Positions 16,988 to 17,836 of a DNA stretch of 64,000 nucleotides are shown piece after piece. This DNA is from Shigella phage ESh15: the sequence record ON528725; one strand, written 5' to 3'. The stretch's first letter is position 1, and each line of letters begins with the position of its first letter. Made by a program: the position numbers and the translations under genes. Below the pieces are notes generated by a model that made no database searches, was not told where the DNA came from, and saw only the letters and a program-made list of their open reading frames with translations.

Positions 16988-17016
16988 AAAAAGCCCCAAC
17001 CTTTCGGAAGGGGCTA
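16988..17016 (-). terminator. rho-independent terminator at the distal end of the tRNA/stable-RNA region
   Basis: minus-strand hairpin agcccc-12nt-ggggcu followed by UUUUUU; near-identical to the terminator at 1106-1133. Confidence 0.6.
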
Positions 17017-17058
17017 TATACCTTGTCGGGGTTTCCACCTACTAAGGCAAGTGTTTGT

Positions 17059-17150
17059 ACGAAACGCCGGGACTCGAACCCGGTTATTAAGCAGTTGACG
17101 CTACTCAATATTTTTAAAAGGCCATATCTCGACCATATCCGAACGTTCCG
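17059..17150 (-). ncRNA. candidate stable RNA with tRNA-like T-arm and acceptor stem (not a canonical tRNA)
   Basis: CCGGG-TTCGAGT-CCCGG T-arm and a 7-bp acceptor pairing CGGAACG/CGTTTCG, but 92 nt with no canonical D or anticodon arm. Confidence 0.3.
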
Positions 17151-17318
17151 TCAAAAACGCTACTCGGCTTACGGCAAAGATATTTCCTCGAATCGATAAT
17201 TCGGTGCGCCGTTTCTGCTGTGATGTAAGGGGATATTAACGAATCATAAAGATTTATTAAGACCAGTCCTTACTCAGGGAACATCAGTCCGACGTCTTGC
17301 CGGTAGCGACCCGGCTTC

Positions 17319-17663
17319 TTATTTTGGCATATCATCAATTTGTTCTCGACGCCGACGCCATAGATTAATCGCTTCATTGGCACATTCTGCGTTTGGTATA
17401 TGACGGCAATAATATAATGATTCGCGTTTCTGGAACCGATGTTGCAATGGAATTTCGTTTAAAAGGTCTTTACGGTCAAAGTATTCAAAACTAGTTAACC
17501 CAGAACGGTTTTTAAGAAACTTCCAATGTCCGAATTCATTTTGAAAATAAACGTAATCAGCGTGTTGATATAACGAATTAATCAACCGGTCGGAAATAAC
17601 TGTATCCTGTTCGTTAAAATAAAACGTTAAATCATGAACTACCAAATAAATATTGCCTTTCAT
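17319..17663 (-). CDS. hypothetical protein (114 aa) within the tRNA region
   Basis: ATG 17661-17663 with GAGGA SD; the track start at 17711 would overlap tRNA-Arg. Confidence 0.45.
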   Translation of the reverse strand: MKGNIYLVVHDLTFYFNEQDTVISDRLINSLYQHADYVYFQNEFGHWKFLKNRSGLTSFEYFDRKDLLNEIPLQHRFQKRESLYYCRHIPNAECANEAINLWRRRREQIDDMPK

Positions 17664-17681
17664 ATTTTCCTCACTTGAAGT

Positions 17682-17758
17682 TGGTCGAGACAGAAGGATT
17701 CTAACCTTCAACCTACGGATTAGAAGTCCGTTGCTCTATACAATTGAGCTATGCCTCG
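17682..17758 (-). tRNA. tRNA-Arg (anticodon TCT)
   Basis: hand-folded cloverleaf: acceptor CGAGGCA/TGTCTCG, D-stem GCTC/GAGC, anticodon stem ACGGA/TCCGT with loop CTTCTAA, T-arm GAAGG-TTAGAAT-CCTTC, encoded CCA. Confidence 0.75.
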
Positions 17759-17761
17759 GAT

Positions 17762-17836
17762 TGGTGACCCTGGCTGGTTTCGATCCAGCTACCTATCAGT
17801 TATGAGCTGACAGCTCTCCCATTGAGCTACAGGGCC
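17762..17836 (-). tRNA. tRNA with CAT anticodon (Ile-CAU/lysidine type or Met)
   Basis: hand-folded cloverleaf: acceptor GGCCCTG/CAGGGTC, D-stem GCTC/GAGC, anticodon loop CTCATAA, T-arm GCTGG-ATCGAAA-CCAGC, encoded CCA; 3 nt from tRNA-Arg. Confidence 0.7.

What the first reader, a model, noticed from the sequence alone, without database searches (positions are those of the whole stretch)
17012..17836. Reduced tRNA set (Arg-TCT and a CAT tRNA) plus a tRNA-like stable RNA candidate
Only two cloverleaf tRNAs could be folded by hand, 3 nt apart: tRNA-Arg(TCT) and a CAT-anticodon tRNA (Ile-lysidine type or Met). T4 encodes eight. The 300-bp noncoding stretch at 17012-17318 contains a perfect T-arm (CCGGG-TTCGAGT-CCCGG) joined to a 7-bp acceptor-like stem but no canonical D or anticodon arm (17059-17150). 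This could correspond to the poorly understood T4 stable RNA species or to a decayed tRNA gene.
Basis: partly seen in the sequence, partly recalled or inferred. Interest (0 to 1): 0.5.

Follow-up and report, generated by a model that had tools for sequence, protein, structure and literature searches.

The report
Two tRNAs and T4 stable RNAs
This is the tRNA operon of an RB69-like T4-type phage: two ordinary tRNAs followed by its copies of the long-known T4 "species 2" and "species 1" stable RNAs (rnaD, rnaC), whose function is still unknown, although species 1 proves to be a conserved tRNA-shaped RNA with two loops that pair with each other.

Summary
The 64-kb window has two tRNAs, 3 nt apart: Arg(UCU) and a CAU tRNA. 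The CAU tRNA is the lysidine-type tRNA-Ile, not Met.

The 300-bp "noncoding" stretch is the orthologue of T4 rnaD (species 2 RNA, 17203-17322, minus strand) and rnaC (species 1 RNA, 17058-17196, minus strand). An intrinsic terminator follows. rnaC differs from T4 at 3 of 139 positions, all structure-neutral.

Comparison of 25 homologues from at least 7 phage genera gives a four-way junction with tRNA topology:
- It stacks next to a canonical T-arm and is followed by U-(A/C)CA.
- A roughly 70-nt arm replaces the D-arm.
- A 10-bp arm carries a 6-nt loop.

The two hexaloops (UUGACG and CGUCAA) are perfectly complementary in every homologue. They change together to UUGGCG/CGCCAA in Klebsiella phages, which indicates a kissing interaction.

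No Rfam family matches, and function remains unknown in the literature I could search. The locus is already known. The structural detail may be new.

The parts
17762..17836 (-). tRNA with CAU anticodon, CCA encoded. This is the lysidine-type tRNA-Ile2, which reads AUA after host TilS modification. Software labels it tRNA-Met.
   Evidence: ARAGORN and Rfam RF00005 at 59.4 bits. The first 18 nt and the acceptor stem are identical to the T4 gene annotated tRNA-Ile, which also carries CAT. C4-G69 and C5-G68 are present. The only E. coli matches, five genomes at E=4e-3, are annotated tRNA-Ile. PMC1524935 reports that the CAU tRNAs of T4-like phages carry IleRS/lysidine signatures.
17682..17758 (-). 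tRNA-Arg(UCU), CCA encoded. It reads AGA.
   Evidence: ARAGORN and Rfam at 71.1 bits. It is closer to the Aplg8-type tRNA-Arg than to T4's.
17319..17663 (-). 114-aa ORF (MKGNIYLVVHD...) of unknown function, lying between tRNA-Arg and rnaD. Its stop codon overlaps the 5' end of rnaD. In T4, tRNA-Arg abuts rnaD directly.
   Evidence: the ORF listing. phrog_3355, unknown function, E=2.8e-50. No Pfam family. T4 layout.
17203..17322 (-). rnaD orthologue (T4 species 2 RNA), about 120 nt. It has a 5' hairpin GCCGG-GUCGCUA-CCGGC (17299-17315), an invariant long-range helix (about 17290-17294 with 17207-17211), and a variable central hairpin. Ends are assigned by homology only.
   Evidence: Alignment to the T4 annotation; 84.7% identity to T4. 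Consensus structure 93% paired, with 10 of 34 pairs compensated against at most 5 in slid controls.
17197..17202 (-). Spacer GAAUUA between rnaD and rnaC. An AAUUA-like leader also precedes rnaC where a tRNA lies upstream.
17058..17196 (-). rnaC orthologue (T4 species 1 RNA), 139 nt: a tRNA-topology four-way junction.
   Evidence: 136/139 identical to T4 rnaC. Covariance model R1 gives 162 bits and a single copy in the window. Structure 95.8-98.1% paired, with 24/45 and 31/50 pairs compensated.
17189..17195 (-). rnaC P1 5' strand (CGAUUCG, nt 2-8). It pairs with 17060-17066 to form the 7-position acceptor-like stem, which has two invariant U.U mismatches.
   Evidence: Pair 4-135 is A-U in 9 sequences and G-C in 16, never broken.
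17119..17188 (-). rnaC long arm (nt 9-78), in the position of a tRNA D-arm. Its sequence is replaced in several genera while length and shape are kept.
   Evidence: Helices 3 and 4: 19 of 21 pairs compensated. Alignment.
17149..17154 (-). Apical hexaloop UUGACG of the long arm (nt 43-48), a kissing partner.
   Evidence: Invariant in 21 of 25 sequences and UUGGCG in the 4 Marfavirus-type sequences.
17085..17110 (-). rnaC arm 2 (nt 87-112): a 10-bp stem in the position of the anticodon arm, with a 6-nt loop rather than a 7-nt loop.
   Evidence: 9 of 10 pairs compensated.
17095..17100 (-). Hexaloop CGUCAA of arm 2 (nt 97-102), the exact complement of UUGACG.
   Evidence: 100% complementary in 25 of 25 sequences. 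It changes to CGCCAA exactly where the partner changes to UUGGCG. Duplex energy is -5.5 and -7.6 kcal/mol for the two versions.
17067..17083 (-). rnaC T-arm CCGGG-UUCGAGU-CCCGG (nt 114-130).
   Evidence: The middle pair is G-C, U-A or A-U across homologues.
17058..17066 (-). rnaC P1 3' strand CGUUUCG (17060-17066) plus U138 and A139. The genomic continuation is UACAA here and UCCAA in the Klebsiella-phage homologues.
17019..17049 (-). Conserved 3' trailer hairpin between rnaC and the terminator. It is also present in T4, and in phage dhaeg it follows rnaD directly.
16987..17015 (-). Intrinsic terminator of the tRNA/rnaD/rnaC operon: AGCCCC-UUCCGAAAGGUU-GGGGCU followed by U6.
   Evidence: Sequence, fold and conservation with T4. 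In T4 the primary transcript ends after the species I gene (PMC2330249). The simple consensus scan missed this terminator because of the internal U.U mismatches.

Best explanation
The region 16987-17836 (minus strand) is the tRNA operon of an RB69/JS09-like (Mosigvirus-type) T4 relative. Its order is tRNA-Ile2(CAU), tRNA-Arg(UCU), a 114-aa ORF of unknown function, rnaD (species 2 RNA), rnaC (species 1 RNA), a trailer hairpin and an intrinsic terminator.

**The two tRNAs.** They decode AUA and AGA. These codons make up 18.6% of Ile codons and 18% of Arg codons in this window's ORFs. From textbook knowledge, they are the rarest codons of E. coli. The CAU tRNA needs host TilS to become an Ile tRNA (inferred).

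**rnaC structure (shown by comparison).** rnaC is a 139-nt RNA with tRNA topology.
- Its 5' and 3' ends form a 7-position acceptor-like stem that joins a 5-bp T-stem without a gap. This gives the 12-position acceptor/T-arm stack of a tRNA. It is followed by U-(A/C)CA.
- The D-arm is replaced by a roughly 70-nt arm.
- The 'anticodon' arm is 10 bp with a hexaloop.
- The two hexaloops base-pair with each other over 6 bp. Covariation shows the pairing. Whether it forms within one molecule or between molecules is not resolved.

**Processing (inferred, about 0.7).** The acceptor/T-arm module lets host tRNA-processing enzymes excise rnaC from the polycistronic transcript, with RNase P at the 5' side and endo/exonucleolytic trimming at the 3' side. 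This would explain why rnaC sits exactly like a tRNA between tRNA-Trp and tRNA-Gly in other genera, and why it accumulates as a stable RNA. rnaD would then be released as the upstream product.

**Effector function (inferred, about 0.25).** It is not known. My best guess is that rnaC acts as a tRNA mimic that occupies or diverts a host or phage factor that reads the acceptor/T-arm end of tRNAs, with the loop-loop clamp holding the rest of the RNA in a fixed shape.

**Sub-confidences.** Identity about 0.97. Secondary structure about 0.9. Loop-loop pairing about 0.65.
For: **Identity**
- 96-98% identity to Mosigvirus-type genomes.
- 91.5% identity to the T4 stretch annotated rnaC|rnaD.
- Boundaries mapped by alignment.
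- rnaC is 136/139 identical to T4, and all 3 differences are structure-neutral.

**tRNAs**
-; codon counts.
- RB69 has 2 tRNAs, and T4-like CAU tRNAs are of the lysidine-Ile type (PMC1524935).

**rnaC structure**
- RNAalifold consensus on 15 sequences.
- 98.1% of cells paired. 24 of 45 pairs are compensated, against 6.4 +/- 1.8 in shuffles and at most 7 in slid controls.
- On 25 sequences from at least 7 genera: 95.8% paired, 31 of 50 pairs compensated, 161 compensated cells against 53 +/- 6.

**Loop-loop pairing**
- Complementary in 25 of 25 sequences.
- A46-U99 switches to G-C in the four Marfavirus-type sequences.
- The same two loop versions, and no others, occur in 12 metagenome loci.

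**tRNA-like placement and tail**
- rnaC lies between tRNA-Trp and tRNA-Gly, with a 5-nt leader and a 6-7-nt trailer.
- The tail is UACA in most homologues and UCCA in Klebsiella phages.

**Expression in T4 (literature)**
- RNAC and RNAD are late RNAs by RNA-seq, validated by northern blot with an RNAC probe (PMC9697503).
- Both are part of a roughly 1.75-kb primary transcript that ends after species I (PMC2330249).

**Hint of a host-related role**
- A convergent SNP arose in rnaD in three phage BW-1 lines adapted to E. coli ECOR34 (PMC12685909).
Against: - No expression data exist for this phage. All RNA ends here are assigned by homology to the T4 annotation.
- RNase P processing of species 1 RNA could not be verified in the searchable literature. 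A 2024 RNase P review's list of non-tRNA substrates does not name it (PMC11143913). The annotated T4 5' end (U1) lies one nucleotide upstream of the canonical RNase P site for the 7-bp stem.
- The loop-loop covariation rests on one evolutionary event in one lineage.
- One lineage (MY742 type) has a non-canonical T-loop, UGCAUGC.
- The encoded tail in this window is ACA, not CCA.
- From my memory of the older T4 literature, deletions removing the tRNA region including both RNAs are viable on laboratory hosts. Any function is therefore conditional.
- The decoy idea has no direct support.
Confidence: 0.85

Rival explanations
1. The T-arm region is a decayed tRNA pseudogene with no function of its own, carried along in the tRNA operon.
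For: It has a canonical T-arm and acceptor-like strand but no D arm or anticodon loop. Weak tRNA-like scores link tRNAs and the rnaC model: 14.7 and 9.4 bits. An evolutionary origin from a tRNA is plausible.
Against: rnaC is 136/139 identical between this phage and T4, while the neighbouring tRNA-Arg is about 60% identical and the flanks do not align. It is retained in at least 7 genera at constant length (138-142 nt) even where the long arm's sequence has turned over. 31 of 50 pairs are compensated. It accumulates as a stable RNA in T4 (PMC9697503).
Confidence: 0.03
2. The functional fold is the first reader's 92-nt tRNA-like unit (17059-17150), with CGGAACG as the 5' acceptor strand. This is the same kind of fold that makes ARAGORN call a 95-nt 'tRNA-Met' inside the SonariX homologue.
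For: The 7 pairs can be drawn in this sequence. ARAGORN and a GenBank annotation call a tRNA there in SonariX. Pairing is 91% over 15 homologues.
Against: It has no compensatory change, is broken in 5 of 15 at pair 49-138 and in 2 of 15 at two further pairs, and every shuffle does as well. CGGAACG is instead the 3' strand of a hairpin stem in which 5 of 6 pairs are compensated. The competing terminal stem is never broken and covaries. ARAGORN and Rfam do not call a tRNA here in the window.
Confidence: 0.04
3. The stretch encodes small proteins, as many GenBank records annotate it ('hypothetical protein' over the rnaC/rnaD homologues).
For: ORFs of 47 aa (-) and 58 aa (+) exist here. 'Hypothetical protein' calls lie under the match in many records.
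Against: Length differences of 1-3 nt among homologues break any reading frame. Substitutions follow base-pairing, not codons. T4 RNA products of these sizes have been sequenced and annotated.
Confidence: 0.02
4. rnaC and rnaD are only cis-acting processing or stability modules of the tRNA operon. They would act as 3' end protection and RNase entry or exit sites, and the released RNAs would be inert by-products.
For: They sit at the 3' end of the operon before the terminator in T4 and here. The tRNA-like module would recruit processing enzymes. No trans function has been found in 50 years (PMC3014915, PMC9697503).
Against: In Karamvirus, Gelderlandvirus and related phages, rnaC is internal, between tRNA-Trp and tRNA-Gly, so it cannot be a 3' end protector there. 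rnaC and rnaD occur independently of each other. The invariance of the hexaloops, the tandem U.U and the junction goes far beyond what a processing handle needs. An adaptive SNP arose in rnaD (PMC12685909).
Confidence: 0.15

Closest known systems
Bacteriophage T4 rnaC (species 1 RNA) and rnaD (species 2 RNA)
   Same: Direct orthologues. The order is the same (rnaD, 6-nt spacer, rnaC, trailer hairpin, terminator). rnaC is 136/139 identical and rnaD about 85% identical.
   Different: In T4, rnaD directly follows tRNA-Arg. Here a 114-aa ORF (phrog_3355) lies between them, and the upstream tRNA set is 2 rather than 8.
tRNA (Rfam RF00005)
   Same: Four-way junction with the arms in tRNA order. A 7-position acceptor stem is contiguous with a 5-bp T-stem and, in most homologues, a UUCRANU T-loop. 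The single-stranded tail is U-(A/C)CA. In other genera it is placed in tRNA arrays with tRNA-like spacers.
   Different: There is no D-arm; a roughly 70-nt arm takes its place. The 'anticodon' arm is 10 bp with a 6-nt loop and no U33/R37 pattern. Linker lengths differ. The acceptor stem has a tandem U.U. No RF00005 hit appears even at E<=10.
Other tRNA-like modules: the tmRNA tRNA-like domain, mascRNA, plant-virus 3' tRNA-like structures, bacterial Y-RNA-like YrlA
   Same: The principle is shared: an acceptor/T-arm mimic borrowed by a non-tRNA to engage tRNA enzymes (RNase P substrates are listed in PMC11143913).
   Different: There is no sequence or model match. ARAGORN finds no tmRNA. The only hits are mascRNA at 14.8 bits on the T-arm and a YrlA hit that lies on the true tRNAs. 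The domain architecture differs.
Phage P1/P7 C4 antisense RNA and phi80 M3 RNA (phage RNAs matured by RNase P)
   Same: Small phage-encoded stable RNAs cut out of longer transcripts, with host RNase P as the named enzyme for C4 and M3 (PMC11143913).
   Different: From memory, C4's loops pair with an mRNA target. rnaC's two loops pair with each other. RNase P cleavage of rnaC is inferred here, not shown.
   Same: Two hairpin loops with Watson-Crick complementarity across the whole hexaloop, maintained by co-variation.
   Different: Both loops are in one 139-nt tRNA-shaped RNA. No link to packaging, replication control or dimerisation is known.

Membership tests
T4 rnaC (species 1 RNA) | Sequence homology to the annotated T4 rnaC | tested here: met
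   136/139 identical; covariance model R1 gives 162 bits.
T4 rnaC (species 1 RNA) | Position at the distal end of the tRNA operon, after rnaD and before the trailer hairpin and terminator | tested here: met
T4 rnaC (species 1 RNA) | Accumulates as a discrete stable RNA of about 140 nt in infected cells | not testable with these tools
   Shown for T4 only (PMC9697503; annotation).
T4 rnaD (species 2 RNA) | Sequence homology and synteny with the annotated T4 rnaD | tested here: met
   84.7% identity over 118 nt. The 5' and 3' blocks are invariant and lie immediately upstream of rnaC.
T4 rnaD (species 2 RNA) | Accumulates as a discrete stable RNA of about 120 nt | not testable with these tools
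   T4 only (PMC9697503).
tRNA (RF00005), applied to the 17058-17196 RNA | Reaches the Rfam gathering score (29 bits), or is called by ARAGORN | tested here: not met
   No RF00005 match at E<=10 and no ARAGORN call.
tRNA (RF00005), applied to the 17058-17196 RNA | D-arm and 7-nt anticodon loop | tested here: not met
   The consensus structure has a 70-nt arm and a 6-nt loop instead.
tRNA (RF00005), applied to the 17058-17196 RNA | Acceptor stem of 7 positions contiguous with a 5-bp T-stem and 7-nt T-loop | tested here: met
   The stem includes two invariant U.U mismatches.
tRNA (RF00005), applied to the 17058-17196 RNA | 3' CCA end and aminoacylation | tested here: inconclusive
   The tail is UACA here and UCCA in Klebsiella-phage homologues. 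Charging cannot be tested.
tRNA-Ile2 (lysidine type), applied to 17762-17836 | CAU anticodon in a canonical cloverleaf | tested here: met
tRNA-Ile2 (lysidine type), applied to 17762-17836 | Ile-type rather than Met-type body. From memory, the TilS determinants are C4-G69 and C5-G68. Similarity to known tRNA-Ile(CAU) genes is also expected. | tested here: met
   C4-G69 and C5-G68 are present, and the acceptor and D arms are identical to T4 tRNA-Ile. The only E. coli hits are annotated tRNA-Ile, though weakly (E=4e-3). PMC1524935 agrees.
tRNA-Ile2 (lysidine type), applied to 17762-17836 | C34 converted to lysidine and charged with Ile | not testable with these tools
   Needs RNA mass spectrometry or charging assays.
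tmRNA | tRNA-like domain plus tag reading frame, detected by ARAGORN or Rfam | tested here: not met

The most novel reading that the evidence does not exclude
rnaC (species 1 RNA) is a dedicated tRNA mimic. Its acceptor/T-arm end, with an invariant tandem U.U and an NCA tail, is presented by a body locked by a conserved 6-bp loop-loop interaction. It acts in trans on a factor that reads tRNA 3'/acceptor ends, for example a host defence nuclease or nucleotidyltransferase, RNase P, or the CCA-adding enzyme. In this way it would modulate host range. rnaD would be a separate module with a related conditional role, consistent with the adaptive rnaD SNP seen in phage BW-1. The loop-loop architecture itself may be undescribed.
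Probability: 0.15. Interest if true: 0.7.

Novelty: already known. Interest (0 to 1): 0.3.

Why it matters
As a genome feature this is ordinary. The two-tRNA set of RB69-type phages and the T4 species 1 and 2 RNAs have long been described, and near-identical sequences sit in hundreds of GenBank phage genomes.

Its residual value is threefold.
- These two RNAs are among the oldest known phage non-coding RNAs that still lack a function. They also have no Rfam family.
- They are routinely mis-annotated as 'hypothetical protein', 'tRNA-Met', 'tRNA-Lys' or 'tRNA-OTHER'.
- The comparative structure obtained here gives concrete, mutable targets for testing what rnaC does: the tRNA topology, the terminal acceptor stem with tandem U.U, the NCA/CCA tail and the co-varying complementary hexaloops.

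This comes at a time when phage tRNAs and tRNA-targeting defences are under active study.

Tried and rejected
1. Rfam at gathering and at E<=10 over 16900-17950 found nothing for the noncoding stretch beyond chance-level hits: terminator-like sRNA models on the terminator, and mascRNA on the T-arm.
3. A loose gapped pattern scan of IMG/VR gave 40 loci. The covariance model showed that all the new ones were chance matches, apart from one marginal hit at 19.7 bits, E=0.029.
4. A metagenome scan gave 12 loci with no new loop variants. A scan of 185,579 bacterial and archaeal genomes gave no hits, so there is no cellular homologue.
5. Literature searches for 'species 1 RNA', 'p2Sp1', and kissing or tRNA-like T4 RNAs found no paper on the structure or processing of species 1 RNA. 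The T4 genome review (PMC150520) is not held. The 1970s-80s work (Paddock and Abelson; Apirion and co-workers, including a reported self-cleavage of a species 1 precursor) is therefore cited from memory only and could not be checked.
6. I considered pairing between the rnaD loop GUCGCUA and the GUAGCG motifs of rnaC. It spans only 5-6 nt, lies inside rnaC stems, and rnaC occurs without rnaD, so I dropped it.
7. I considered the 9-nt direct repeat GAGUAGCGU inside rnaC (nt 32-40 and 91-99) as a sign of duplication. Its chance expectation is about 0.04 and it is absent from the divergent arm types, so I did not pursue it.
8. The simple terminator scan did not report the operon terminator because of its internal U.U mismatches. 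I accepted the terminator on sequence, fold and T4 conservation.
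Full report
**What the window is**

The 1-kb region around the finding is 96-98% identical to many Escherichia phages of the RB69/JS09/HX01 group, including records named Mosigvirus. The wider gene order is T4-like.

**The two tRNAs**

ARAGORN over the whole 64 kb finds exactly two tRNA genes and no tmRNA. They are tRNA-Arg(tct) at 17682-17758 and a cat-anticodon tRNA at 17762-17836, both on the minus strand, 3 nt apart, and both with an encoded CCA. Rfam's tRNA model scores them at 71.1 and 59.4 bits, and nothing else in the window reaches a gathering score. 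The homologous T4 locus has eight tRNAs. A two-tRNA set is the published state of RB69 (PMC1524935, Table 1).

ARAGORN labels the CAT tRNA as Met, but it labels the T4 gene annotated tRNA-Ile the same way. The window tRNA shares its first 18 nt and its whole acceptor stem (GGCCCUG/CAGGGUC) with that T4 tRNA-Ile. It carries C4-G69 and C5-G68, as the E. coli ileX sequence does. The E. coli sequences and the role of these pairs as TilS determinants are from my memory. The only matches in 5,426 E. coli genomes are annotated tRNA-Ile, though weakly (five genomes, E=4e-3). PMC1524935 states that the CAU tRNAs of T4-like phages carry the IleRS/lysidine signature. I conclude it is tRNA-Ile2, which reads AUA after host modification.

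In 71 non-overlapping ORFs of the window, ATA is 18.6% of Ile codons and AGA is 18.0% of Arg codons. From textbook knowledge, both are the rarest codons in E. coli. This gives an ordinary rationale for keeping just these two tRNAs.

**The 'noncoding' 300 bp**

A distant BLAST of 17000-17325 against 50,697 phage records hits 806 of them. 679 of these cover at least 80% of the query, whereas only 132 of 820 do so for the 1-kb region. This stretch is therefore the most widely conserved part of the locus.

In T4 (AF158101.6) the match lies under the features rnaC ('species 1 RNA'), rnaD ('species 2 RNA') and the end of tRNA-Arg. Phage Aplg8 is annotated the same way.

Alignment to T4 maps the following, all on the minus strand:
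- rnaD to window 17322-17203
- a 6-nt spacer
- rnaC to 17196-17058
- a conserved trailer hairpin at 17049-17019
- a hairpin-plus-U6 terminator at 17015-16987

In T4, tRNA-Arg abuts rnaD. Here a 114-aa ORF of unknown function (phrog_3355, E=2.8e-50, no Pfam family) lies between them, and its stop codon overlaps the first bases of rnaD.

**Structure of rnaC**

The window's rnaC differs from T4's at 3 of 139 positions: G-C versus G.U, U.G versus U-A, and one T-loop base. All three are structure-neutral.

I collected homologues from GenBank phages, IMG/VR and metagenomes. Fifteen distinct sequences give an RNAalifold consensus that is a four-way junction.
- 98.1% of cells are paired.
- 24 of 45 pairs show compensatory change, against 6.4 +/- 1.8 in shuffles and at most 7 when partners are slid.
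- A covariance model built from the alignment finds one copy in the window (162 bits). It also finds homologues in phages assigned to Tequatrovirus, Karamvirus, Moonvirus, Gelderlandvirus, Kanagawavirus and Marfavirus, besides the Mosigvirus-type phages.
- On 25 sequences the structure is 95.8% paired, with 31 of 50 pairs compensated.

The arms, in order:
1. P1 pairs nt 2-8 (CGAUUCG) with nt 131-137 (CGUUUCG). It has two invariant U.U mismatches and an A-U/G-C switch at the third pair.
2. A roughly 70-nt arm (nt 9-78). Its sequence is entirely replaced in several genera, while its length stays within about 3 nt.
3. A 10-bp arm with a 6-nt loop (nt 87-112).
4. A T-arm (nt 114-130) that joins P1 without a gap.

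This is tRNA topology with the acceptor/T-arm stack intact and the D and anticodon domains replaced.

It fails the same test: no compensation, breaks in 5 of 15 sequences at one pair and in 2 of 15 at two others, and every shuffle does as well. That segment is instead one strand of a well-supported hairpin stem.

**The two hexaloops**

The apical loop of the long arm is UUGACG (17154-17149). The loop of arm 2 is CGUCAA (17100-17095). They are exact complements. Chance complementarity of two given hexamers is 4^-6, about 2.4e-4.

Both loops are invariant even where the stems below them have changed completely. In the Klebsiella phages kv_tblp5, Biddle_MM4, Marfa and VAC36 the loops are UUGGCG and CGCCAA. 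This is a double change that keeps the pairing. Counted as a helix, it is paired in 25 of 25 sequences, with A-U in 21 and G-C in 4. Twelve metagenome loci show the same two versions and no others.

This is one evolutionary event, so the evidence is suggestive rather than conclusive. Because both flanking stems are independently supported, the pairing is by definition a loop-loop (kissing) interaction. Whether it forms within one molecule or between molecules cannot be decided here. The conserved arm length and my own count of helix lengths mildly favour an intramolecular clamp: about 18 bp plus three internal loops on one side, against 6+6+10 bp on the other. This is an inference.

**Placement and tail**

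In SonariX, KMB17, Melville and relatives, rnaC sits between tRNA-Trp and tRNA-Gly. It has a 5-nt AAUUA-type leader after the upstream CCA and a 6-7-nt trailer before G1 of tRNA-Gly. This is exactly how a tRNA would sit, and no rnaD is present.

After the acceptor 3' strand, the sequence is U-ACA-A in most homologues, including this window. It is U-CCA-A in the Klebsiella phages.

ARAGORN, and the SonariX record itself, call a 95-nt 'tRNA-Met' inside that phage's rnaC. Other records carry 'tRNA-Lys', 'tRNA-OTHER' or 'hypothetical protein' over this stretch. These are annotation artefacts.

**rnaD**

Twelve homologues show invariant 5' and 3' blocks and a variable middle. The consensus has three parts:
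- a 5' hairpin (A/G)CCGG-GUCGCUA-CCGG(U/C), whose closing pair covaries
- an invariant long-range helix
- a variable central hairpin

It is 93% paired, with 10 of 34 pairs compensated against at most 5 in slid controls. rnaD is not tRNA-like.

Phage dhaeg (Dhakavirus) has rnaD directly after tRNA-Arg. It has no rnaC, and the trailer follows rnaD directly. The two RNAs are therefore separable modules.

**Distribution**

A pattern spanning the rnaC 5' motif and 3' half finds no match in 185,579 bacterial and archaeal genomes. No Rfam family matches either RNA.

**How it most likely works**

- *Shown:* identity with T4 rnaD and rnaC; operon layout and terminator; the secondary structure of both RNAs; loop complementarity with one compensated change; tRNA-like placement and tail.
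- *From the literature, for T4:* both RNAs are part of a roughly 1.75-kb primary transcript that ends after species I (PMC2330249). They classify as late RNAs by RNA-seq, validated by northern blot with an RNAC probe (PMC9697503). Their function is unknown (PMC3014915, PMC9697503). A convergent SNP in rnaD arose in three phage BW-1 lines adapted to a semi-permissive E. coli (PMC12685909).
- *Inferred:* the acceptor/T-arm module makes rnaC a substrate for RNase P and for 3' trimming. This would excise and stabilise it and release rnaD upstream (about 0.7). It is not verified: a 2024 RNase P review does not list species 1 among non-tRNA substrates (PMC11143913), and the annotated 5' end is 1 nt off the canonical site.
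- *Inferred:* the effector role is a tRNA-end mimic acting on a tRNA-reading factor, with the kiss fixing the body (about 0.25).

**Comparison with known families**

The locus is a member of the T4 rnaC and rnaD families by homology, synteny and structure. rnaC works partly like a tRNA but fails membership: it has no D arm, no 7-nt anticodon loop and no model hit. It resembles other tRNA-like modules and RNase P-matured phage RNAs in principle only.

**Verdict**

The feature is real and correctly spotted, but already known. The comparative structure and the co-varying kissing loops may be new. I could not check this against the 1970s papers, which are not held in the library.

Noticed in passing
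window 17319-17663 (-): A 114-aa ORF (phrog_3355, unknown function, no Pfam family) is inserted between tRNA-Arg and rnaD, where T4 has no gap. Its stop codon overlaps the start of rnaD. Aplg8 has a roughly 360-bp insert at the same place.
   Followed up: partly
L048:702-841, L049:700-839, L054:300-439, L055:304-443 (Klebsiella phages, Marfavirus type): These rnaC homologues have the co-varied hexaloops UUGGCG/CGCCAA. They also encode a true U-CCA tail after the acceptor strand, instead of U-ACA.
   Followed up: partly
L003:1204-1298 (SonariX); records under hits H33 and H100: rnaC homologues are mis-annotated as tRNA-Met (95 nt), tRNA-Lys or tRNA-OTHER, and in many records as 'hypothetical protein'. 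ARAGORN reproduces the spurious SonariX call.
   Followed up: yes
L005:1195-1330 (Escherichia phage dhaeg, Dhakavirus): rnaD is present directly after tRNA-Arg, but rnaC is cleanly absent. The trailer sequence ACACUUG... follows rnaD, so the two RNAs are independent modules.
   Followed up: partly
window 17299-17315 (+): On the plus strand, the complement of the rnaD 5' hairpin followed by TTCTTATTTT scores as a terminator-like site. It is probably incidental, since the neighbouring genes are on the minus strand.
   Followed up: no
window 16978-16985 (-): A T4 late-promoter consensus TATAAATA lies just downstream of the operon terminator, ahead of the 206-aa ORF at 16322-16942 (-). The motif occurs 19 times in the window, against 8.3 +/- 2.8 expected.
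   Followed up: no
window 17915-17925 (-): The sequence upstream of the tRNA pair contains TTTGCTTTA, which resembles a T4 MotA-box (middle promoter) motif. This fits the middle promoter described upstream of the T4 tRNA cluster. It was not tested.
   Followed up: no
L004:1204-1343, L007, L019 (Enterobacter phage MY742 type): In these rnaC homologues the T-loop is UGCAUGC instead of UUCRANU, while the T-stem is unchanged. The canonical T-loop motif is therefore not strictly required.
   Followed up: no
window 17157-17165 and 17098-17106 (-) (rnaC nt 32-40 and 91-99): A 9-nt direct repeat, GAGUAGCGU, forms the 5' side of both loop-bearing stems in the T4-type sequence. It is absent from the divergent arm types, and its chance expectation is about 0.04.
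   Followed up: partly
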